Virus record (IMG/VR): IMGVR_UViG_3300037067_022526
Span: 64,001 to 128,000 of that record
DNA from: a virus
Taxonomy: Duplodnaviria > Caudoviricetes
DNA: 64,000 bases
Strand: one strand, 5' to 3'
The notes beneath the pieces are model-generated. The model worked only from the letters and a program-made list of their open reading frames with translations. It was not told the origin of the DNA and did no database searches. The position numbers and the translations under genes were made by a program. Positions 1 to 9,840 of this stretch are shown here, piece by piece (within the stretch, counting starts at the first letter, position 1; each line of letters starts with the position of its first letter).

Positions 1-878
1 AGAATCCACTGATAGGTAATGACCATTTGCAGACCAACAATGTGGGTATACCCGTAGCTAGTTGTTTCCACCCTCATATGATGAAAGTGCGATGCCTATC
101 CAGGTATTTGTCTCCCTCAGAATTATATAATAACGACGAAAAGTTTAAAGACGCCATCAATCGTTGTTTTGAATTGGGTAACAAACCAAACGAAGCGAAT
201 ATTCGCCGTATCCTCCGCACTCGTGACGGTGTCCGTAGTGCAGTTAATTTTAAGCCAGTTATAGCTAAATATATTTATCAGAACTATGCCCCCACCGGAG
301 GTAAGGTCCTCGACCCTTGCGCTGGCTACGGTGGCAGACTAACCGGACTTATCTCTACTAATAAAAACCTTCTCTATCACGGTATAGACCCCTGCCCAGA
401 GACCACAGTGGGTAACACCCAACTAGCAGCCTTCTATTCCCGCCTATACGAACCCATAACTAAAGAATTGCAGTGGAAGTTTAGGTTTCGTCACGATTTA
501 GGTTGCGCAGAGGATGTCTTGCCCACTTTGCCAGATAAAGAATATGATTTGGTCTTTACTTCGCCACCTTATTTTAATGTAGAACAATATGACACTTTGC
601 CTAATCAGAGCTACCTCAGATATCCTGATTATGAGTCCTGGCGGGATAAATTCTTATCTGTTTTAATCAAAGAATCTTGCCGGGTCTCCAAGCAGTATGT
701 AGTATTAAATGTTAAAAACTATAAGAGCTATCCGATAGCAGACGATGCTCTAAAGTTTGCGGAGCAAATGGGATATGGAATACATAAGACTTACCAAATG
801 AGATTAGCCAATAGCGAATTTCACAGAAGAGAGAGTGAACCGACATATCATGTTGAACCTATTTATGTGTTGTTGTGA
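1..878 (+). CDS. DNA amino-methyltransferase (N4-C/N6-A type), 5'-truncated by window edge
   Basis: SAM-binding motif DPCAGYGGR and catalytic FTSPPY; frame is open back to the window edge; stop codon lies inside the degenerate terminal CRISPR repeat. Confidence 0.85.
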   Translation, partial: NPLIGNDHLQTNNVGIPVASCFHPHMMKVRCLSRYLSPSELYNNDEKFKDAINRCFELGNKPNEANIRRILRTRDGVRSAVNFKPVIAKYIYQNYAPTGGKVLDPCAGYGGRLTGLISTNKNLLYHGIDPCPETTVGNTQLAAFYSRLYEPITKELQWKFRFRHDLGCAEDVLPTLPDKEYDLVFTSPPYFNVEQYDTLPNQSYLRYPDYESWRDKFLSVLIKESCRVSKQYVVLNVKNYKSYPIADDALKFAEQMGYGIHKTYQMRLANSEFHRRESEPTYHVEPIYVLL

Positions 879-1239
879 TTCACTCCCCTCCCCTTCATAG
901 AGGAGAATCACCGATAATTGGGTGTTACCCACTACGGTTTCGTTGCAATTCACTCCCCTTTTCAGGGGAGAAACACCGTGGCATAAGGAGAAACAGCAGT
1001 GGCAAAGGTTGCAATTCACTCCCCTTTTCAGGGGAGAAACACCATTGGCGCATTGTTCTGTTGCCATGTCGTTGTTGCAATTCACTCCCCTTTTCAGGGG
1101 AGAAACACCCATCGAGTGATGTAGCGGTGAAAGCGTCGGTTGCAATTCACTCCCCTTTTCAGGGGAGAAACACCTTTATCTTTGCTGCTGCGTGGCCGTG
1201 GCCGTTGCAATTCACTCCCCTTTTCAGGGGAGAAACACC
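872..1239 (-). CRISPR. CRISPR array 1: five identical 36-nt repeats plus one degenerate trailer repeat, five spacers of 29-30 nt
   Basis: Repeats at 942, 1008, 1074, 1139 and 1204; minus-strand sequence GGTGTTTCTCCCCTGAAAAGGGGAGTGAATTGCAAC (hairpin CTCCCCT-GAAA-AGGGGAG plus 11-nt 3' tail); degenerate copy at 872-912. Confidence 0.98.
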
Positions 1240-1384
1240 CGAGCACTCATAACTTGATATAATTCAGCACCTTATGAGTATTCAGGGTCACAAATTTTGA
1301 GTCGCCCAATTCACTTTTCAAAGAACACTTCCCATTTTCTACGAATTCTCAGTATATTGTACTTGCTCTGCTGCTAAAAGTCAA
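1240..1384 (-). promoter_or_regulatory. Leader and sigma70 promoter of array 1
   Basis: About 110 nt homologous to the array 2 leader; minus-strand TTGACT(1384-1379)-17 nt-TACAAT(1361-1356). Confidence 0.8.
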
Positions 1385-3687
1385 ATCAATTCTTCCATGT
1401 ATCCCAAAAATTCAGTATCGTATTTTCCTGACCACACACACATTCCAGGTATTTTTTCATAGGGTTTAGTATAGTTTAAAATCGTTTTAATATTGCCTTC
1501 GAAAATTTGTACACTATTTCTAACTATATCTGTCGATGTTGGATATTCGATATTATCTATGTTTTCTGGTTTAACTATAACAGTTATTTTATTATTAGGT
1601 ATAACCTGATAAATGTCACCAACATCTTTCATGTATTTTTTTTGTTCAAAGCTCATTAAGCTCCCGATTGTAACAACTTTGTTATTTAAATTGCCAACTA
1701 CATTAAGATTGCCTATTTCATCTTCCATTGCTTCTGCGCAATGTTCTGGTCCTATTTTTCCGAGAGCGTAATATTCTCGAAAAATTTTTGCTCCATCTCT
1801 GAATTCTTTGTTTTCAGTAAAATCATCTAAATCTAACTCGAAAACGTATAGTGTGGAATCATTAAAGACATTATCTCGATTGATTCGACCAGCCAATTGC
1901 AAAGCACTATTTAAATTGCAGTTTTCTCTGAAACCATTTCTGAAAGAAATGTTTATTCCAGATTCTATGCACGATGTTGCAATTAATATGAAATTCTCAT
2001 CGGAACTTAATCGTGATTTGATATCTTCTAATATGACCTCTCGATCTGTAGCACAAAGTGCTGTGGACATGTGTAATACATGTTCACGCCCAATTATCTT
2101 TGATATTGTTTTTGCAACCAATGCTGCGTTTTTGACAGTGTTAAAAACCGCTACTACCGGACCTTTGCTGCGCTCATTTATAACAGCATTACAAATTTGG
2201 GGTAAAGATAGTTTATTCCAATGCCCGTTATCTTGTATGCCGCCTAATTGCTTTATTGTAACTCTGGATTTTTCTTGTTTAAGAGTTATCTCTGAAATCT
2301 CTGGTGGAACTATAGATGGGACATTATAATCAAAACCATCTAAGACATATTTTCTAAATCGCTTGATTTCCCAAGGCTTCGTCATAGACCCAGACACAAA
2401 CAGTACTCGGCATCCCATATTTTCAACTAACCATTTTAAGTAATATAATGTAAGTGGCCACAATTTTGAGGGCAGGCAACAATGAGACTCGTCAAAAATA
2501 ATGAATTTACCGGCTAAATTGAGATACTTTCTAAGCTTTTTAGGTGTGTATCCAGCCAAAGTTTCACAAAATTGTACTGCGGTTGTGCAGGTAATTGGAC
2601 AATTCCATGTCTGTGTATAAAGTTTTGCGGATAGATCATGTTCAAAATCTACTCCAAGATGATGCTCTGCAACGGTTAATTTATCATCTTCTTCGGGCAA
2701 AACAATTGCTTTTCTATAAGTGTCTGCAGTTTGGCTAATAATATTAGTATAAGGTGCAACATAAATTATACCTGACATATTATTAGTATTAACAGTATGT
2801 AAAGCATATGCCAAAGATGATAAAGTTTTGCCATTACCAACTTCACTAGCAAGATATGTAAATGATGCGGAAATTTCTGAATGTCTACACGATTGATATA
2901 TAGCTTGCCTTATTTTGTTCCTCTCGGTTTCTGCTGAAAAGCTACTAACATATTTATCTAGTTGTAGTAATCTTTCATTTGCTTTTATTGGGATTGTGTC
3001 TTCTACTATGAAGTTCTTGTAATTTTTAGCAGTGTCATAGTAGTCTGCTGTTACGAGTACGCTTAATGCTAATCTTGATAGTGGAGCACTAATATTCTTG
3101 TTATAATTCATTCCGCTTTTCAGAGGAGAAACACTTAGGGGTTCAACTAAATTTATTTCTTTTTTATGAAGTTCCATTAGCTTGTCTAATTTTGCATCGA
3201 CATATTCGCTCATGAGCATGTCTGTTTCTTTTACCCACGGACATCTTTCCCCTAGTAAATTATTATCTCGAAGGTCATCGTATAGATTTTTTTGGTATCC
3301 GAGATGATGAGCGAAAACAAGCCATGCTGCGTACCTATATTGATCTGATAAAGACATGTTCCCGTTTTGTGCTGCCTTGTCACATTGACTTATCAGATAA
3401 GACACACCGGCATCAACATGATTTGGCATTTTACAATTTAATACTTTACCACTTAAAACCATTTGACAATAAGGATCAAGCTTCCCTGTGTCATGGTACA
3501 AAATTGCGGTTAATAAATGACATTTTAGAAAATTATAATGATCTTCTGATATGAATGATTTTAATTTTTCTATTTCTTGCTCTGCTTTTAAGTATACACC
3601 AGATATATGATCAATAAAAGATTGTTCTGGAATGTTTCTTTCCAAATCTGCTGAATGGGCTAAGTTACAATTCACTCTACTTTTCAT
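1381..3687 (-). CDS. cas3: Cas3 HD nuclease-helicase (type I-C-like)
   Basis: HD motifs AHS..DH, YHDTGK, AHH; SF2 motifs VGNGKT, YVAPYTNII, FDESH, FNTV, LQLAGRINR; CRISPR context. Confidence 0.95.
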   Translation of the reverse strand: MKSRVNCNLAHSADLERNIPEQSFIDHISGVYLKAEQEIEKLKSFISEDHYNFLKCHLLTAILYHDTGKLDPYCQMVLSGKVLNCKMPNHVDAGVSYLISQCDKAAQNGNMSLSDQYRYAAWLVFAHHLGYQKNLYDDLRDNNLLGERCPWVKETDMLMSEYVDAKLDKLMELHKKEINLVEPLSVSPLKSGMNYNKNISAPLSRLALSVLVTADYYDTAKNYKNFIVEDTIPIKANERLLQLDKYVSSFSAETERNKIRQAIYQSCRHSEISASFTYLASEVGNGKTLSSLAYALHTVNTNNMSGIIYVAPYTNIISQTADTYRKAIVLPEEDDKLTVAEHHLGVDFEHDLSAKLYTQTWNCPITCTTAVQFCETLAGYTPKKLRKYLNLAGKFIIFDESHCCLPSKLWPLTLYYLKWLVENMGCRVLFVSGSMTKPWEIKRFRKYVLDGFDYNVPSIVPPEISEITLKQEKSRVTIKQLGGIQDNGHWNKLSLPQICNAVINERSKGPVVAVFNTVKNAALVAKTISKIIGREHVLHMSTALCATDREVILEDIKSRLSSDENFILIATSCIESGINISFRNGFRENCNLNSALQLAGRINRDNVFNDSTLYVFELDLDDFTENKEFRDGAKIFREYYALGKIGPEHCAEAMEDEIGNLNVVGNLNNKVVTIGSLMSFEQKKYMKDVGDIYQVIPNNKITVIVKPENIDNIEYPTSTDIVRNSVQIFEGNIKTILNYTKPYEKIPGMCVWSGKYDTEFLGYMEELI

Positions 3688-4161
3688 GGAAGAAACACCT
3701 CAATAGTAAGACTTTCAGTTGTAATTCACTCCACTTTTCAAAAGGGGAGAAACACCACGCCCGCCGATCTTTCCGCCGTCGGTTCCGTTACAATTCACTC
3801 TCTTTTTTCAGGAGAGAAACATCAAGTGTCAGCGTCATGTTGCAAGTCTTTCAAAAAATTAGTTGTAATTCACTCCCCCTTTCGGGGGAGAAACACCTCG
3901 TGATTTATGTTACCTATGCACTCGGCGGTTGCAATTCACTCCCCCTTTCGGGGGAGAAACACCTATACCCGAGTGGGGTACAGAAGTTGGCGTGTTGCAA
4001 TTCACTCCCCCTTTCGGGGGAGAAACACCCCCGCTCGTATAACATACCGTAACTGCCAGGTTGCAATTCACTCCCCCTTTCGGGGGAGAAACACCCGTCC
4101 TGAGAATCAAGCAATGCTAGGTCTAGTTGCAATTCACTCCCCCTTTCGGGGGAGAAACACC
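3664..4161 (-). CRISPR. CRISPR array 2: five near-identical repeats plus three degenerate trailer repeats
   Basis: Repeats at 3862 (one mismatch), 3928, 3994, 4060 and 4126, minus-strand GGTGTTTCTCCCCCGAAAGGGGGAGTGAATTGCAAC, with 30-nt spacers; degenerate copies at 3664, 3718 and 3787 with 18-, 30- and 38-nt spacers. Confidence 0.97.
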
Positions 4162-4271
4162 CGAGCACTCATAACTTGGTATAATTCAACACTTTATGAG
4201 TGTTTAGGGTCACAAATTTTGAGATATTTGGTTTACTTTTCAAAGAACGCCTCTCGTTTTTTGCGAATTCT
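4162..4271 (-). promoter_or_regulatory. Leader of array 2
   Basis: Homologous to 1240-1349; inverted repeat ACTCATAA/TTATGAGT around an IHF-like site (ATTCAACACTTTA). Confidence 0.75.
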
Positions 4272-5250
4272 AGCTCAGATCATGTACTTCAAAACTGAAT
4301 CCACATTCCGCAGCATTGGGTACATTGTAATCACTTAGACATATTGGTTTGTCGTTTTTTGCAGTAGGCTTAAGATTATTTATAAATTCAGTTTCTTTGA
4401 AACTTCCAATAGTATTAGAATGGTCTGCCCACCAAACATGTTGTAAATTCATCGAACCCGATGGACGTGCACACGAAGACGATGTTTCGAAAATATGTGG
4501 TAGTATTTTCTTAAGAATATCAATATCTTCTTGGGCAGCATTGGTCAGATGGGCACAATGCGGGTTGACGGAAATTAGTTGATAATACATGCCGTGACGA
4601 ATAAATTTTAGCGCATTTGGACCTATATCTCCAGAAGGATCTTTATCTTTGATCGTTCTTCCTGTATCTGTTGCCAGATGATCTGCGCTTAATGGCGACT
4701 TTTTTGTAACACTTGCCTCGATAATTTCCACTGGCGCAATTGAACACCCGACACCAATCGAAACACATCCAGTACGAACAAATCGAGGTTCTTCTTTCTT
4801 TTCCTTCTCTAGCCCATCTGGTAGAGCTGTTGTTCCGAAAATCCTGACATCAAAATATCGATTTAAAAAGGCTTCAGGGTCAGACTTGGCTAGCGCCATT
4901 GCTTTTCTGGCACATTCAAGCTCTGATGTTCCAGCGTACCCTTTGTTGCGGCTTTCAAATACATACAATCGTTCAGGGTCAAGATTGTCTCTCTTTACAA
5001 AATCCTTGAAAACCGGATTATCATGATCGGACAAGAAATCCCTGATCTTCCTTTTAATAGACATTGGTGATACCCACCCATATCCATCTGGAAATGTGCG
5101 TGGAGCATTTCCTACATCCGGGTCTCCGTTGGGATTTCCACAAATTACTTCATACACTAGCATTCCAACACTGCGATTCAATTGATACATTTTTTTCTCC
5201 AAAGTTGAATTTTCTGTTACGATCGTTTCTGATTTAATTGACTTATTCAT
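4270..5250 (-). CDS. cas7: Cas7 (Csd2-type) backbone subunit
   Basis: NPNGDPD..NAPR and SIKRKIRD motifs, FDVRIFG; start moved to ATG 5250 (GGAG SD, overlaps the cas8 stop). Confidence 0.93.
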   Translation of the reverse strand: MNKSIKSETIVTENSTLEKKMYQLNRSVGMLVYEVICGNPNGDPDVGNAPRTFPDGYGWVSPMSIKRKIRDFLSDHDNPVFKDFVKRDNLDPERLYVFESRNKGYAGTSELECARKAMALAKSDPEAFLNRYFDVRIFGTTALPDGLEKEKKEEPRFVRTGCVSIGVGCSIAPVEIIEASVTKKSPLSADHLATDTGRTIKDKDPSGDIGPNALKFIRHGMYYQLISVNPHCAHLTNAAQEDIDILKKILPHIFETSSSCARPSGSMNLQHVWWADHSNTIGSFKETEFINNLKPTAKNDKPICLSDYNVPNAAECGFSFEVHDLS

Positions 5251-5716
5251 TGTTTTCTCCATTCGGATTTTCCACAGACACTTTTTCAAGATCAACACCG
5301 ATCTCTGACTTGACTGATTTTGGCGACCTATAAGCATATCCCATTTCCAGGAGTATTTTATAAATATCAGGATCAAACTCATTAAATTGGTTAACGCTCT
5401 TAAATTGATTATTATGTAAATCAGGCATTATATTCATAAGTTTACTAATTATTTCTTTATATTCTCTGATTGGCAAATAACCATGTTTATATGGCTCTTT
5501 TTCTTTGCGAATATAATTTTCTGCCCAACATTCGTACTTAGAAAAGTTTCCTATAAATGTTCCTAGCGCTCGTTTTGGAAATTTATATGCTTGCTGTATA
5601 TATTCTTGTCCGATAAGCTTTTGAGGTTCATTTATCCCTCTACTCTTAAAATATATTCGGTGAATATTGTTTGCTTGACTAAATAATTGTCCCATTAAAA
5701 ACGGCACACTGTTCAT
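5243..5716 (-). CDS. cas11: Cas11 small subunit translated internally from cas8
   Basis: In-frame ATG 5716 preceded by AAGGAG (5728-5723) at 6-nt spacing; MNSVPFLMGQLF motif; internal Cas11 translation is established for type I-C. Confidence 0.7.
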   Translation of the reverse strand: MNSVPFLMGQLFSQANNIHRIYFKSRGINEPQKLIGQEYIQQAYKFPKRALGTFIGNFSKYECWAENYIRKEKEPYKHGYLPIREYKEIISKLMNIMPDLHNNQFKSVNQFNEFDPDIYKILLEMGYAYRSPKSVKSEIGVDLEKVSVENPNGENNE

Positions 5717-7186
5717 GATCATCTCCTTTGTAAAACCATTTTTACTCAAAACAATCCCCGAAATTGGCACCAGCCATTGCCGTTCATACGGCATTTTTTC
5801 TAATTTACCATCAGAACACTCAATTAGCATTTTGGTATGATTTTTTGCAAATATGCGAGTAACTTTTTTAATTGCTTTTTCGTTTTCGAAAAAGAAGTCG
5901 TATATATCTGAAATTGTTATATACTCTCGCTCTATAATAGATGATATTTTATTACGATCATTTTTCCATATTTTATTAATACATTTAGAAAAATTAGAAA
6001 TAGTTGGCGGGAGAAATTTGCCTTTGCAAACAAATTTAGACGGACGAGTTGATGTTCCGGATACCCATTTGTTTACACAATTAGCAATATTTTTTCCATT
6101 CATTTCTTTATGATATTTAATTTGACACGCACCATTTTTGGGTATAAATAGGACAAAAATTGAACATTGAAATGGTGTTTTATTAATCTCACCGTTTAAC
6201 ATGTGAACAATCTTTTTGCCCTCTGCCTCCCATTGTTCAATATCCATTTGGTTGGATTCTTCTGTTCGACCCTCAATCCAGTCAGATGAAGGTGATAGAG
6301 TAGTAATAACCAAATCTCTTCCGTTGTCTTTTTGGATATAATACCAGAGACCATTTCGAGTGCCTTCTTTTCCTAAATTGTTATAATAAAAATTCTCAGA
6401 TACAATAGAATTGATGATTTTCAGTATTTGTTTGCGAGTAGAATTTCCGATTTTGCACGCATTTACACCAGACATGCCAAATCGTTCATAGCATTCATTA
6501 TCCTCATTTTTAGAATAAAGTTTTATTGTGCCGACGCCGCAAGGGAGCTTGGTTTCAAATGTTTTTGATTTATTTTCCCACCCATCGGCAGGATTGTTGA
6601 GTATGTCGATATCGATAGATGAGTTTGTTTGTTTAGAAATAAGCCAATCATTCACCACCTTCATTGACTCACTATTTTGAACCTTATTGGAAAATTTTAA
6701 TTGTTTCCAATCTGGAATGTCTAGAGAAAAATAACAACTTTTGATCTTTTTATCTTGTTGTGAAATAAAGTCATCTAATTTGTTCATTAAAGCATTTGGA
6801 TCAATTCGAGATAATCTATTGGATAATTCTTTGAAAGCACAAAACCTATCTTGATCATCTATATGTTTAGATATATCGGAATGGCAATATAAATGATGTT
6901 TAATTCCATTCAGTCTTTTCTTAGAATCTTTATTAGTGTCATATTTGAAAGTAAATCCAGATGCAAAATTAGAGTATTTAAAATATCTAAGATCGGAAGC
7001 AGACTCAGACTCAAAAGGTTCGATAGCGATATCAAGATTCTTATCAATTAATATAAGAAAACGTTGACCGTTATTATTTTTGGGCATTTGTGGATGCCAC
7101 GTTGTATCGTTTGTGTTTGATAAATCCCCAATATTCAGACCCCAGCTTTTTAAACTTTCTTCAATTGATAATATTTCATGCAACAT
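5243..7186 (-). CDS. cas8c: Divergent Cas8c (Csd1)-like large subunit
   Basis: Position between cas5 and cas7, 647 aa, C-terminal PFLMGQLFSQANNIH resembles the Cas11c region; N-terminal part not recognisable by eye. Confidence 0.75.
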   Translation of the reverse strand: MLHEILSIEESLKSWGLNIGDLSNTNDTTWHPQMPKNNNGQRFLILIDKNLDIAIEPFESESASDLRYFKYSNFASGFTFKYDTNKDSKKRLNGIKHHLYCHSDISKHIDDQDRFCAFKELSNRLSRIDPNALMNKLDDFISQQDKKIKSCYFSLDIPDWKQLKFSNKVQNSESMKVVNDWLISKQTNSSIDIDILNNPADGWENKSKTFETKLPCGVGTIKLYSKNEDNECYERFGMSGVNACKIGNSTRKQILKIINSIVSENFYYNNLGKEGTRNGLWYYIQKDNGRDLVITTLSPSSDWIEGRTEESNQMDIEQWEAEGKKIVHMLNGEINKTPFQCSIFVLFIPKNGACQIKYHKEMNGKNIANCVNKWVSGTSTRPSKFVCKGKFLPPTISNFSKCINKIWKNDRNKISSIIEREYITISDIYDFFFENEKAIKKVTRIFAKNHTKMLIECSDGKLEKMPYERQWLVPISGIVLSKNGFTKEMIMNSVPFLMGQLFSQANNIHRIYFKSRGINEPQKLIGQEYIQQAYKFPKRALGTFIGNFSKYECWAENYIRKEKEPYKHGYLPIREYKEIISKLMNIMPDLHNNQFKSVNQFNEFDPDIYKILLEMGYAYRSPKSVKSEIGVDLEKVSVENPNGENNE

Positions 7187-7203: not shown

Positions 7204-7887
7204 TTATTTATTTAAATTTTCGTTTTCAAACTTTAGAATTCCATTGGCTGCGATTACTTTCTCGGGACCAAGTTGTAAAATTCCATGAGCGATTCGCAAA
7301 GTTTCTGTTATTGGAAATTGCATAATATATCCATTTTTTTTGTCAAAATATTGTAGGACATATCCGTGTAAAATTTCATTATAATCAGAAATTATGGGAG
7401 TTATAGGTAATCCGACATAATCAGAAAAAAAGTCGCTCGGACCAAGTGTCGGCATTCGATAATATTGTTCTTTACTTAATCGACGATAAAATTGATCGCG
7501 ATATGAATGGGCACAATTAATATGTGCGTATTTTGGGTGAGGTGGTTCTACGGTAGACCTTTTGGCGGTTGCACAAATTTGAAATCTAGGGCGAAGCAAA
7601 GCTGTAGCTTTTATTTGACATGCATTTCCATCTCTTTTCTGTCCTTCTTTTCGAATTGATGACCACGAATTAAAAGCATAATCTAAATATTCTGGTCGGT
7701 GACATATCCCGATAGCTTCTATTTGTATGGATGCACTTTTAACTCTTAAAATTGACTGCATTATACCAAATGCCGCAGTGGGCGTAGGAACTGGATAACT
7801 ACATGGTTCTGATCCGCTATCAGGTCTGGCGAACATGCCTATGGGTCCGCCAACCTCGAATATGATTCCGTAAGATTTCTGGTACAT
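7204..7887 (-). CDS. cas5: Cas5 (Cas5d-type, likely the crRNA-processing nuclease)
   Basis: EVGGPIGMFARPD..SYPVPTPTAAFGI motif; start at ATG 7887 after AAGGAG; no cas6 present. Confidence 0.92.
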   Translation of the reverse strand: MYQKSYGIIFEVGGPIGMFARPDSGSEPCSYPVPTPTAAFGIMQSILRVKSASIQIEAIGICHRPEYLDYAFNSWSSIRKEGQKRDGNACQIKATALLRPRFQICATAKRSTVEPPHPKYAHINCAHSYRDQFYRRLSKEQYYRMPTLGPSDFFSDYVGLPITPIISDYNEILHGYVLQYFDKKNGYIMQFPITETLRIAHGILQLGPEKVIAANGILKFENENLNK

Positions 7888-7907: not shown

Positions 7908-7936
7908 ATTATAACCTTAGCGTGATGGGAAGTCAA
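7908..7936 (-). promoter_or_regulatory. sigma70 promoter of the cas operon
   Basis: TTGACT-17-TATAAT on the minus strand. Confidence 0.8.
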
Positions 7937-7973: not shown

Positions 7974-8002
7974 TTGACAATTTACGTAGCAGGCAATATA
8001 AT
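7974..8002 (+). promoter_or_regulatory. Consensus sigma70 promoter, divergent from the cas operon
   Basis: TTGACA-17-TATAAT. Confidence 0.88.
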
Positions 8003-8011
8003 GGATTGTAA

Positions 8012-8046
8012 GATGTTTCTCCCCTAAAAAGGGAGTGAATTGCAAC
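8012..8046 (+). repeat. Solitary CRISPR repeat (array-type)
   Basis: GATGTTTCTCCCCTAAAAAGGGAGTGAATTGCAAC, intact 11-nt 3' handle, 9 nt after the -10 box. Confidence 0.9.
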
Positions 8047-8068: not shown

Positions 8069-8353
8069 ATGTGGAATTTGACAGAACACGCAAAACCGGT
8101 CACCGGAGAAGAATCTTTAGTAATTTATACTTGTCCGCAATTTCTTGAGGACGAACATCCTGGTATATATTACATACACGAAGCATACTGTATACACAAT
8201 GGTTTCTGTCGTTATTACCCGGATGAAGGTTGGTTCTGTGGGGATAATAAAATGCCAGAACCCGTAGCGTGGATCCGTCCCGAAAAATTGTTAGAGTATT
8301 TTTTGACGCAACTACCCAGCAAAGATCAGTCAGCTACAACACCTTTCAGATAA
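8069..8353 (+). CDS. Hypothetical protein, paralog of 13268..13519
   Basis: Shared MWNLT..AKPV.GE.SLVIY and WFCGD..MPEP.AW.RPEKLLE motifs. Confidence 0.75.
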   Translation: MWNLTEHAKPVTGEESLVIYTCPQFLEDEHPGIYYIHEAYCIHNGFCRYYPDEGWFCGDNKMPEPVAWIRPEKLLEYFLTQLPSKDQSATTPFR

Positions 8354-9252
8354 TCAGATATCGCAGTCCTGATGATATCTACGTAAGAAATTTCACAGTC
8401 ATTTTCATATGCTTGCTTGCGGGCAACTCTTTTTAATTGTTCTAATTGATCACTCAAAATTCGGATGCTGATTGTGATATTCTCAACGACATTTTGAAAT
8501 TTCGACCCAAATTCACATCCGAAATCGCCATCAGACATATGTTGGTTTTCTTGCCGCAGCATCTCTTCGGTATAATCGGTATTCACTTCCCATGTGGGTA
8601 GTTGGCATATCAACCTGTAATCAGGTGCAGTTGAAATTAAATTATATAATAAATCGCCTTTGCGCCTTGGTGACGAGACTATAATAGTTCGTGATTCATG
8701 CACTCCGTCATGTTTGAAGTCGGCAGTGCTGGGAATCAATGCATTATAAATTCTATCACCCGACTGCCCTGGAAATGACGCGATCTCATTGAATACAAGA
8801 GTGAAATATCGCTTGCCCAGGAGATTTGAACTATTGGCGTGAGCAACCATTAAACAAATGTATCCTGATCGATTCCGCCTTGGCAACCAAATTTTGTTCT
8901 GCTCTATTTTGGTTATCTCATCTCGAAAATACTCAGATCGAGTAACAAGCAGTTTCAACTCCGTGAAGAAAGATCTTGCCTCCTCTGCACTATTACAAAC
9001 AGCAAGCTGATAAATCGTGTCCTGGTTTGGGATATTATAATATTCAAACGGATTTGGTATTTCTAATAGTCGCCGTGTCTCTGCCAGTAGCAGCAGTGTA
9101 GCAAGATAATCCTTTCCGCTACGTCTTCCCAAAACGGCAACTAACTCTCGGTATTGTCCAATATAGAAGTTGGACATGATTTCTTTTAACCTCGGATATA
9201 ACTTAATGTTAGGTGTAATTAAATATTGCTCGATAAATTCCATTGAAGTCAT
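8326..9252 (-). CDS. Terminase-large-subunit-like ATPase domain fused to a C-terminal ribbon-helix-helix domain
   Basis: GRRSGK Walker A, LVFNEIA (Walker B with D to N), IVSSP, LPTWEVN; no nuclease domain; RHH ISIRI..LKRVAR..SYVDIIR; start at 9252 with GAAAGGAG SD. Confidence 0.75.
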   Translation of the reverse strand: MTSMEFIEQYLITPNIKLYPRLKEIMSNFYIGQYRELVAVLGRRSGKDYLATLLLLAETRRLLEIPNPFEYYNIPNQDTIYQLAVCNSAEEARSFFTELKLLVTRSEYFRDEITKIEQNKIWLPRRNRSGYICLMVAHANSSNLLGKRYFTLVFNEIASFPGQSGDRIYNALIPSTADFKHDGVHESRTIIVSSPRRKGDLLYNLISTAPDYRLICQLPTWEVNTDYTEEMLRQENQHMSDGDFGCEFGSKFQNVVENITISIRILSDQLEQLKRVARKQAYENDCEISYVDIIRTAISDYLKGVVAD

Positions 9253-9358
9253 AAAAAGCTCCTTTCTACTAATACTTACTTCGCTGTCATAATTATTTCC
9301 TGTAAGAATTATGACAAAATTTACCACATAATACATTATACAGCGCAGGAGATGTGGA

Positions 9359-9583
9359 ATGTTTCTTCAATGAAGTGAATTGCAACTTGACAACTCCCAC
9401 AGCCAGCAGTATAATGAGCCGTAAGATGTTTCTCTTTTGAAAAGAGGAGTGAATTACACAACATGGTAGTGTGGATTTTACTCATCAATGCCATACTTTG
9501 TGCATTATTCTTCTTTTTCGGCGTTTTCTGCGGATGGAGTTTAAGCTCGGATATAGATGTTTCTCCCCTGAAAAGGGGAGTGA
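9359..9583 (+). repeat. Three degenerate or partial CRISPR repeats (mini-array-like)
   Basis: Copies at 9359-9386, 9425-9462 and 9556-9583 (the last has a perfect array-1 hairpin and lies inside an ORF). Confidence 0.8.
9387..9415 (+). promoter_or_regulatory. Consensus sigma70 promoter in spacer position
   Basis: TTGACA-17-TATAAT; homologous to 7974-8011. Confidence 0.85.
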
Positions 9584-9840
9584 TAAAAAATCATATTGCT
9601 GCCGGACAGAAGGGTGCAGAGCTTTTGCGTAATAAATTTGGACTTATTAATATAGAAACCAGATCGGAAAGATACCCCGAGTCCCAAAGTATATCTCCGC
9701 AAAAGGCCCTAGATTTATTAAATGTATCTTGTGTTTGGATATCCAAACCATCTCTTAATGTTGTCATAGAGACATCGACAGGGAATTACCGAGTGAGATT
9801 CAGTGAATTTGACCGATACTTTTTATGCGGAGACAAATAA
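9463..9840 (+). CDS. Hypothetical membrane-anchored protein
   Basis: Hydrophobic N-terminus; ATG directly follows a repeat; contains repeat-derived DVSPLKRGV. Confidence 0.55.
   Translation: MVVWILLINAILCALFFFFGVFCGWSLSSDIDVSPLKRGVIKNHIAAGQKGAELLRNKFGLINIETRSERYPESQSISPQKALDLLNVSCVWISKPSLNVVIETSTGNYRVRFSEFDRYFLCGDK

What the first reader, a model, noticed from the sequence alone, without database searches (positions are those of the whole stretch)
872..4271. Type I-C effector with type II-C/VI-B-like array geometry and no adaptation genes
Seen: 36-nt repeats with 29-30-nt spacers. The minus strand gives an I-C-type hairpin plus handle (TGAATTGCAAC, compare TGGATTGAAAC). The plus strand starts GTTG with the leader downstream. 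No cas1/2/4 in the window. Established: I-C arrays usually have about 32-nt repeats and 33-37-nt spacers; 36/30 is typical of type II and VI arrays; Flavobacterium VI-B arrays borrow II-C Cas1-Cas2. Inference: a dual-compatible repeat that is filled by a host type II-C integrase and read in the opposite direction by phage Cascade. The single imperfect protospacer has CCN at its 5' side (NGG on the other strand), which fits but is only one data point.
Basis: partly seen in the sequence, partly recalled or inferred. Interest (0 to 1): 0.75.

Follow-up and report, generated by a model that had tools for sequence, protein, structure and literature searches.

The report
Phage I-C-like CRISPR without adaptation genes
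A large phage carries a divergent type I-C-like CRISPR-Cas interference system with unusual 36-base repeats and 30-base spacers and no spacer-acquisition genes. The 36-base repeat is inherited across a whole phage lineage, and nothing found here shows that the spacers come from a host type II-C system.

Summary
Two arrays (872-1239 and 3664-4161) have 36-nt repeats and 29-30-nt spacers. They flank cas3 and lie downstream of cas5-cas8-cas7 on the minus strand. On that strand each repeat folds as a hairpin followed by an 11-nt handle, as in type I-C. No Cas1, Cas2 or Cas4 is found in the 90-kb virus record. About 47.6 kb of a longer 137.8-kb assembly could not be read.

I found a lineage of at least eight phage-borne systems with the same cas5-cas8-cas7-cas3 gene set and an array inside or beside it. 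None has adaptation genes in reach. One relative is a 527-kb genome rated 100% complete, and it also lacks Cas1, Cas2 and Cas4. Seven of the eight lineages have 36-nt repeats. Spacers are about 30 nt in three lineages and about 36-38 nt in four. So the 36-nt repeat is a lineage trait, not a sign of one host's type II-C system.

Trans-adaptation by some host integrase is plausible and has precedents, but the donor type is unknown. No protospacer was found, so no PAM could be derived. The host is unknown, and no cellular array with this repeat was found. Phage CRISPR systems without adaptation genes have been known since 2020. I rate this a new variant of a known kind, of moderate interest.

The parts
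7908..7936 (-). Likely cas operon promoter (TTGACT-17-TATAAT, 11 of 12)
   Evidence: It lies just upstream of the cas5 AAGGAG ribosome site and the ATG at 7887.
7204..7887 (-). cas5 (227 aa), I-C type (Cas5c/Cas5d-like)
   Evidence: Pfam Cas_Cas5d 25 bits (cut-off 23) and TIGR02593. The lineage profile hits solved I-C Cas5 structures: 8g9t at 7e-17, and 7kha.
5243..7186 (-). Large subunit (647 aa), a divergent Cas8c
   Evidence: No Pfam or NCBIfam hit of its own. A profile search finds a clade of about 600-aa proteins whose distant members hit Cas_Csd1. The C-terminus of the profile matches D. vulgaris Cas11c/Cas8c (7kha_K, 7e-4).
4270..5250 (-). cas7 (Csd2-like; 326 aa as called by the source assembly)
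   Evidence: Pfam Cas_Cas7 at 144 bits. TIGR02589 Csd2 scores 129.5 bits, below its cut-off of 182.
4162..4269 (-). Leader of array 2
   Evidence: Conserved copy of the array 1 leader (families D3 and D5). It lies between the cas7 stop codon and the first repeat.
3664..4161 (-). CRISPR array 2: five intact 36-nt repeats, four 30-nt spacers, then three decayed units
1381..3687 (-). cas3 (768 aa, HD nuclease plus helicase); its ATG lies inside the last decayed repeat
   Evidence: TIGR01587, TIGR01596 and Pfam Cas3-like_C_2. HD motifs are visible in the alignment. The position of the start codon is read from the sequence.
1240..1349 (-). Leader of array 1
   Evidence: 93% identical to 4162-4223 and 83% identical over the next block.
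872..1239 (-). CRISPR array 1: five identical 36-nt repeats, spacers of 29-30 nt, and a degenerate terminal unit

Best explanation
This is an interference-only, phage-borne variant of a type I-C CRISPR-Cas system. It belongs to a phage-restricted lineage whose hallmark is a 36-nt repeat.

Shown from sequence: all parts are co-oriented on the minus strand behind one strong promoter, in the order cas5, cas8, cas7, array 2, cas3, array 1.

Inferred by homology to I-C:
- One transcript covers the genes and both arrays.
- Cas5 cuts each repeat at the 3' base of its hairpin. The product is a crRNA of about 66 nt: an 11-nt 5' handle, a 29-30-nt guide and a 25-nt 3' hairpin part.
- A Cascade of Cas5, Cas8 and several Cas7 binds matching DNA and recruits the HD-helicase Cas3.
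- The targets are probably competing phages or other DNA richer in G+C than this phage.

The phage does not appear to make its own integrase. The uniform repeats, uniform spacers and conserved leaders suggest that new units were added at the leader end by a Cas1-Cas2 supplied in trans by the host cell. That integrase would need a ruler of 36 nt for the repeat and about 30 nt for the spacer. Its type is unknown, and II-C is only one candidate among several with 36-nt repeats.
For: Gene identities.

Strand: the hairpin plus 11-nt tail is present in all lineage repeats on the cas-sense strand, with fully covarying stems and one U-G pair that would be A-C on the other strand. The leaders are conserved and repeat decay is polar.

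Lineage:
- L001: 36-nt repeats, 30-31-nt spacers; the first repeat overlaps the cas7 stop.
- L051/L058: 36-nt repeats, 28-31-nt spacers, 26 repeats.
- L023/L056, L054, L055 and L057: 36-nt repeats with longer spacers.
- L024: irregular units.
- All sit in phage-like gene neighbourhoods.

No Cas1, Cas2 or Cas4:
- Not in the 90-kb record.
- No Cas1 in four other virus records.
- No Cas1, Cas2 or Cas4 in the 527-kb relative rated 100% complete.

Literature:
- Plasmid type IV-A3 systems use host I-E Cas1-Cas2 in trans (10.1101/2023.06.23.546257).

Targets: spacer G+C is 47-59% against 38.6% for the phage.
Against: No host and no host array with this repeat were found. An exact-stem pattern and a handle-pair pattern both failed over one genome of each of 185,579 species.

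No protospacer was found, so neither targets nor PAM are known.

No comparison between strains could be made, so spacer turnover is not shown.

The unseen 47.6 kb of the longer assembly could still hold cas1.

Some relatives have irregular unit spacing (L023 periods 56-76, L024 periods 46-82). That fits decay or non-integrase evolution better than active ruler-based acquisition.

Transcription, processing and Cas5 catalytic competence are inferred, not measured.
Confidence: 0.6

Rival explanations
1. The repeat is dual-compatible: a host type II-C Cas1-Cas2, possibly with Cas9, adds 30-nt spacers to the plus-strand 3' end of the array. The phage Cascade then reads the opposite strand, so a II-C 3' PAM becomes a 5' CCN-type PAM for Cascade.
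For: The 36/30 geometry equals II-C geometry. II-C arrays do grow at the 3' end (PMC12638026). A genuine II-C array measured here has 36-nt repeats and 27-30-nt spacers (L035/L040). There are no adaptation genes in reach. Cross-type borrowing has precedents (PMC8092290 was listed).
Against: The polarity is equally the normal type I polarity. The 36-nt repeat is a lineage trait, and four relatives pair it with spacers of about 36-38 nt. The II-C repeat that shares the 12-mer carries it at the other end of the repeat. No host II-C array with this repeat turned up among 185,579 species. The only PAM clue is a 24/29 self-match flanked by CCA. Sigma-70 promoters and strong Shine-Dalgarno sites argue against the Bacteroidota setting of the VI-B/II-C precedent (inference).
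Confidence: 0.07
2. The phage has its own adaptation module elsewhere in the genome, in the roughly 47.6 kb not present in the 90-kb record.
For: The record is rated only 65% complete. A 137,762-bp contig with an identical Cas8 exists. The arrays look freshly homogenised and keep conserved leaders.
Against: The complete 527-kb relative has no Cas1, Cas2 or Cas4. No lineage member has them within 10 kb of the locus or in the four virus records searched. Earlier scan notes on the other windows of this genome mention no cas1, which is weak, unchecked evidence.
Confidence: 0.07
3. The arrays are no longer extended by any integrase. They are inherited sets of guides that change only by duplication, recombination and decay. 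The 36/30 regularity is a relic of an ancestral system.
For: The arrays are very small, with 4 to 5 good spacers each. The two arrays plus their leaders look like a duplication. Relatives show irregular, decaying units. No spacer has a detectable target.
Against: The five repeats within each array are identical, yet the two arrays differ by a compensatory change. This is what repeat copying at the leader end produces. Relatives carry 22-37 units with regular leader-proximal spacing. The three 36/30 lineages have only 34-43% identical Cas7, so static arrays would have decayed long ago.
Confidence: 0.2

Closest known systems
Canonical type I-C (Dvulg) CRISPR-Cas, e.g. Desulfovibrio vulgaris and Neisseria lactamica Cascade (PDB 7kha, 8g9t)
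   Same: It has Cas5 of the I-C type, no Cas6 family hit among the nine locus proteins scanned, a Csd2-type Cas7, a Cas8c-like large subunit with a Cas11c-like C-terminus, and an HD-helicase Cas3. The repeat forms a hairpin followed by an 11-nt handle ending in AAC.
   Different: The repeat is 36 nt instead of 31-33, because the 5' flank before the stem is longer. Spacers are 29-30 nt instead of 33-37. There is no cas4-cas1-cas2. An array sits inside the operon between cas7 and cas3. The proteins are very divergent: Cas7 is 25-28% identical to canonical I-C Cas7s and at most 33% to anything outside the phage lineage, and Cas8 has no Pfam hit.
Type I-C variant systems of huge phages (Al-Shayeb et al. 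2020, PMC7162821)
   Same: They are phage-borne, I-C-like with a Cas5d-like Cas5, lack Cas1 and Cas2, and have compact arrays. That paper already suggests the use of host proteins.
   Different: The published example has a helicase in place of Cas3, whereas here Cas3 keeps its HD domain. The 36-nt repeat, the array embedded in the operon and the two spacer-length classes were not found in the parts of that paper I read.
Trans-adapting systems: plasmid type IV-A3 using host I-E Cas1-Cas2 (10.1101/2023.06.23.546257); Flavobacterium VI-B using II-C (PMC8092290)
   Same: These are systems without their own integrase, on a mobile element or as a secondary locus in the cell, whose arrays nevertheless change. 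Their geometry matches that of the donor system.
   Different: In those cases the donor is known, shares leader and repeat features, and acquisition was shown by experiment. Here no donor is known and nothing was measured.

Membership tests
Type I-C CRISPR-Cas | Cas5 of the I-C type (the pre-crRNA endonuclease) and no Cas6 | tested here: met
   Pfam Cas_Cas5d scores above its cut-off. The lineage profile hits solved I-C Cas5 chains. No Cas6 family hit among the nine locus proteins scanned. Catalytic residues were not checked.
Type I-C CRISPR-Cas | Cas8c (Csd1) large subunit with an embedded Cas11c | tested here: inconclusive
   The window protein has no family hit. Distant clade members hit Cas_Csd1. 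The C-terminus of the profile matches Cas11c/Cas8c of 7kha only at E = 7e-4.
Type I-C CRISPR-Cas | Cas7 of the Csd2 family | tested here: inconclusive
   Pfam Cas_Cas7 scores 144 bits. The best NCBIfam model is Csd2, but 129.5 bits is below its cut-off of 182.25.
Type I-C CRISPR-Cas | Cas3 with an HD nuclease and an SF2 helicase | tested here: met
   cas3_HD and cas3_core domain hits, both below the equivalog cut-offs, plus Cas3-like_C_2 above its cut-off. HD motifs are seen in the alignment.
Type I-C CRISPR-Cas | Repeat with a 3' hairpin followed by an 11-nt handle | tested here: met
   Folds of seven lineage repeats and their alignment.
Type I-C CRISPR-Cas | Repeat of about 32 nt and spacers of 33-37 nt | tested here: not met
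   36 nt and 29-30 nt here. Seven canonical arrays measured 31-33 nt and 33-37 nt.
Type I-C CRISPR-Cas | Adjacent cas4-cas1-cas2 adaptation module | tested here: not met
   None in the 90 kb. About 47.6 kb of the longer assembly were not readable.
Type I-C CRISPR-Cas | 5'-TTC PAM | not testable with these tools
   No protospacer found.
Array served by a type II-C integrase | 36-nt repeat, about 30-nt spacer, growth at the plus-strand 3' end | tested here: met
   The geometry and polarity fit. The polarity is also the ordinary type I polarity on the other strand, so this is not diagnostic.
Array served by a type II-C integrase | Repeat and leader ends shared with a co-resident host II-C array | tested here: inconclusive
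   The host is unknown. No cellular array with this repeat was found in 185,579 species genomes. The one II-C repeat sharing the 12-mer carries it at the opposite end.
Trans-adapting CRISPR on a mobile element (IV-A3-like logic) | No integrase of its own, yet arrays that gain spacers | tested here: inconclusive
   Lack of an integrase is supported, including in a complete relative.

The most novel reading that the evidence does not exclude
A phage-restricted lineage of I-C-like effectors has permanently given up its own integrase. It keeps 36-nt repeats and leaders tuned to host integrases of other CRISPR types. For the 30-nt spacer class the donor would be a type II-C-like Cas1-Cas2 that adds units to what is its 3' end, while Cascade reads the opposite strand. 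One array would then be writable by one CRISPR type and readable by another, in opposite directions.
Probability: 0.07. Interest if true: 0.8.

Novelty: new variant of a known kind. Interest (0 to 1): 0.4.

Why it matters
Phage-borne CRISPR systems without adaptation genes are known, but how their arrays are written is still open. This lineage offers a clean case. It spans at least eight phage lineages and includes a complete 527-kb genome without Cas1, Cas2 or Cas4. The repeat length is fixed at 36 nt, and the spacers fall into two classes that differ by about one 6-nt Cas7 step. Arrays reach 26-37 units.

If the donor integrase can be identified, this would show which host systems phages exploit. 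The compact, divergent Cascade, whose Cas8 has no Pfam family, may also interest people who build genome-editing tools.

Tried and rejected
1. Exact-stem repeat pattern in IMG/VR and in the species genomes: no hit.

2. Cas8 as a single protein, and the Cas8 alignments A1, A3 and A4, for locus fishing: no confirmed relative, or the alignment was too diverse to give patterns.

3. Walking along the genome to reach the 137,762-bp contig: five look-ups returned only the 90-kb ENA copy and short contigs of a related strain.

4. Protospacers:
- blastn of both arrays against GenBank phages gave only chance-level hits (E at least 0.5).
- Patterns of the two newest spacers, masked at every sixth base, found nothing in IMG/VR. 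One of them also found nothing in JGI metagenomes.
- All lineage spacers against all loci held found nothing. One 16-nt core match (20/37 overall) was judged to be chance.

6. Rfam: no CRISPR-DR family matches the repeat.

7. L022, with 44% identity to Cas7 over one segment, is an ordinary high-GC I-C locus: after cas7 come three ORFs of the sizes and order of cas4, cas1 and cas2 (not family-checked). It is not a member of the lineage.

8. I rejected it because the shared 12-mer lies at the other end of that repeat.


Full report
**What is there**

The window is part of an IMG/VR virus record of 90,156 bp (window = bases 16,399-80,398; G+C 38.6%; CheckV completeness 65%).

On the minus strand a near-consensus sigma-70 promoter (7936-7908) is followed by these features:
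- cas5 (7887-7204)
- a 647-aa large subunit (7186-5243)
- cas7 (5250-4270)
- a 108-nt leader
- CRISPR array 2 (4161-3664)
- cas3 (3687-1381)
- a second copy of the leader
- CRISPR array 1 (1239-872)

Cas5, Cas7 and Cas3 match I-C or general Cas families. The large subunit matches nothing directly.

The repeat is 36 nt and the good spacers are 29-30 nt. Ten copies occur with at most 3 mismatches, against none expected by chance.

**Strand and polarity**

Decayed repeats lie at the low-coordinate end of both arrays. A conserved leader of about 108 nt lies at the high-coordinate end. For minus-strand transcription this is the usual arrangement: leader, then new repeats, then old repeats.

On the minus strand the repeat forms a 7-bp hairpin that ends 11 nt before the repeat's 3' end. 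This is the layout that type I-C Cas5 processes.

The same layout, with completely different stem sequences, is found in the repeats of all relatives on their cas-sense strand. One stem has a U-G pair that would be an A-C mismatch on the other strand. In relative L001 the first repeat overlaps the cas7 stop codon. In the window the cas3 start codon lies inside the last decayed repeat. The arrays are thus part of the cas transcript.

**Is it type I-C?**

It works like I-C and descends from it, but it fails two of the usual descriptors.

In favour:
- The Cas5 profile hits solved I-C Cas5 chains (8g9t at 7e-17, and 7kha).
- An exhaustive profile search places the large subunit in a clade of about 600-aa proteins. 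There are 51 cluster representatives at E < 1e-30, and distant members hit Pfam Cas_Csd1.
- The C-terminus of that clade's profile matches the Cas11c part of D. vulgaris Cas8c.

Against:
- The repeat and spacer lengths differ from I-C.
- There is no cas4-cas1-cas2.
- Cas7 is at most 33% identical to anything outside the phage lineage.

**The lineage**

By following Cas7, Cas8 and the repeat handle I found seven further independent members, all in phage-like contexts.

| Member | Source | Layout | Repeat | Spacers |
|---|---|---|---|---|
| L001 | JGI contig with SpoVR, clamp loader, sigma factor | cas5-cas8-cas7-array | 36 nt | 30-31 nt |
| L051/L058 | two IMG/VR records of one phage | cas5-cas8-(125-aa ORF)-cas7-cas3-array, 26 repeats | 36 nt | 28-31 nt |
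| L023/L056 | 216-kb and 527-kb assemblies of one phage | cas5-cas8-cas7-array-cas3 | 36 nt | irregular, 30-39 nt |
| L054 | 141-kb contig from the same project as the window | array upstream of cas5 | 36 nt | 36-39 nt |
| L055 | NCBI 99-kb contig | cas3-cas5-cas8-cas7-array | 36 nt | 31-38 nt |
| L057 | IMG/VR 62.5-kb record | cas5-cas8-cas7-array-cas3, 22+ repeats | 36 nt | 35-40 nt |
| L024/L025 | ENA contigs of 28-37 kb | cas5-cas8-cas7-array-cas3-array | hairpin units of about 28 nt | unit periods of 46-82 nt |

Pairwise identities put L051 outside the group formed by the window, L001, L023 and L024. Yet L051 shares the 36/30 geometry. So a 36-nt repeat is ancestral to the lineage, and the spacer length falls into two classes, about 30 nt and about 36-38 nt. 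The difference of about 6 nt equals one Cas7 step in a Cascade backbone. This link is an inference from known Cascade architecture; I did not test it.

**Adaptation genes**

No Cas1, Cas2 or Cas4 was found:
- in the 90-kb record;
- within 10 kb of the locus in any relative;
- in the four other virus records searched for Cas1;
- in the 527,112-bp relative that CheckV rates 100% complete.

This makes a hidden cas1 in the unread 47.6 kb of this phage unlikely, though not excluded.

Its premises are sound. The 36/30 geometry is II-C-like, II-C arrays grow at their 3' end (PMC12638026), and cross-type borrowing exists. But nothing I found favours II-C over any other donor.
- The polarity argument is symmetric with ordinary type I polarity on the cas strand.
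- The repeat length is inherited within the phage lineage and is also paired with 36-38-nt spacers.
- No cellular array with this repeat exists in one genome per 185,579 species.
- Cellular arrays that share the GCAAC-type handle (Luteimonas, a Burkholderiaceae MAG) are ordinary I-C in geometry: 31-nt repeats, 33-38-nt spacers.
- A real II-C locus in a Blastocatellaceae MAG (Cas9, Cas1 and a small downstream ORF in the position of cas2; 36-nt repeats, 27-30-nt spacers) contains the same 12-mer, but at the opposite end of its repeat.
- The CCN clue comes from a 24/29 match between the oldest spacer and the phage's own methyltransferase gene. The 16-nt exact core is unlikely to be chance: I estimate about 1e-3 per spacer in 90 kb. 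More likely it reflects a spacer taken from a related phage's homologue, so the flank in this genome is not a measured PAM.
- Consensus TTGACA-17-TATAAT promoters and AAGGAG ribosome sites suggest a host that is not a Bacteroidota (inference).

**Most likely mechanism**

The system is interference-only and its arrays are written in trans. One transcript carries the genes and both arrays. Cas5 processes it, and Cascade loads crRNAs of about 66 nt. Cas3 degrades targets, which to judge from spacer G+C (47-59%) are not close relatives of this 38.6% G+C phage.

Within each array the repeats are identical, while the two arrays differ by a compensatory pair. This is what copying of the leader-proximal repeat at each acquisition would produce. 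I therefore favour real integrase-driven growth (about 0.5-0.6) over static arrays (about 0.2).

The donor remains unknown. Systems with 36-37-nt repeats include types II-A, II-C, III-A, V-A and VI. This list rests on my own knowledge and was not tested here.

**Novelty**

Al-Shayeb et al. 2020 (PMC7162821) already reported three things:
- I-C variants occur in huge phages;
- such phages may use host proteins.

Benz et al. showed trans-adaptation for plasmid type IV-A3 systems and speculated that the same holds for phage loci.

New here is the definition of a coherent phage lineage with these features:
- a fixed 36-nt repeat;
- arrays inside or beside the operon;
- two spacer-length classes;
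- no adaptation genes even in a complete genome.

I rate it a new variant of a known kind, with interest 0.4.

**Earlier notes of this scan**

Earlier notes describe the same locus from an overlapping window. They also describe the solitary repeats, the cas3 start codon and the methyltransferase match. I re-derived those points from the sequence and do not count the notes as support.

Noticed in passing
window 7974-8046 and 9387-9462 (+ strand); also 9352-9386 and 9555-9591: Two perfect TTGACA-17-TATAAT promoters (12 of 12) each fire straight into a crRNA-sense copy of the repeat, followed by a small ORF (8069-8353, and 9463-9840 with a hydrophobic N-terminus). A further repeat end abuts the second promoter and another hairpin lies inside the ORF. 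The layout recalls CreR/CreTA-type or RNA anti-CRISPR-type solitary repeats. Relative L056 has three repeat units just upstream of cas5 (about 7220-7459).
   Followed up: partly
window 3100-3135 (- strand, inside cas3): A 30/36 match to the repeat lies in frame inside cas3 (residues 185-196). It is part of an insertion absent from the Cas3 of six relatives. A repeat seems to have been taken up into coding sequence.
   Followed up: partly
window 3664-3699: The cas3 ATG sits in the loop of the last decayed repeat of array 2. In L023, L024 and L057 cas3 also starts within about 20-50 nt of the last repeat unit, so cas3 translation may be coupled to array transcription and processing.
   Followed up: partly
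window 399-427 versus 913-941: The oldest spacer of array 1 matches the adjacent methyltransferase gene at 24 of 29 positions with a 16-nt exact core. The 5' flank in the gene is CCA. It may derive from a related phage's homologue.
   Followed up: partly
window 1255-1263 and 4177-4185 (+ strand): Both leaders contain a perfect extended -10 element (TGnTATAAT) on the plus strand. It points away from the arrays and runs antisense to cas3 and cas7. Its function is unknown.
   Followed up: no
leaders of the window arrays, L051, L054, L055, L056 and L057: A GTTAnnA-like motif lies 14-16 nt upstream of the first repeat in nearly all lineage leaders, in both spacer-length classes. The sample is small and significance was not tested. 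It could be an integrase docking element or a transcription element.
   Followed up: no
L024 12700-13300 and 15560-15724: This relative's arrays are strings of hairpin-plus-handle units. The stems differ from unit to unit but stay paired, and the unit periods are 46-82 nt. That is unlike integrase-built arrays.
   Followed up: no
whole genome: A 137,762-bp assembly of the same phage exists (identical Cas8) but no tool returns it. Offsets in the earlier scan notes imply that the extra 47.6 kb or so lies before the start of the 90-kb record.
   Followed up: partly
window 8326-9336 (- strand): A 336-aa protein lies between the two promoter-repeat cassettes. It has a precomputed MJ0330_N Pfam hit and weak similarity to the ATPase part of the terminase large subunit. 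Its role is unknown.
   Followed up: no
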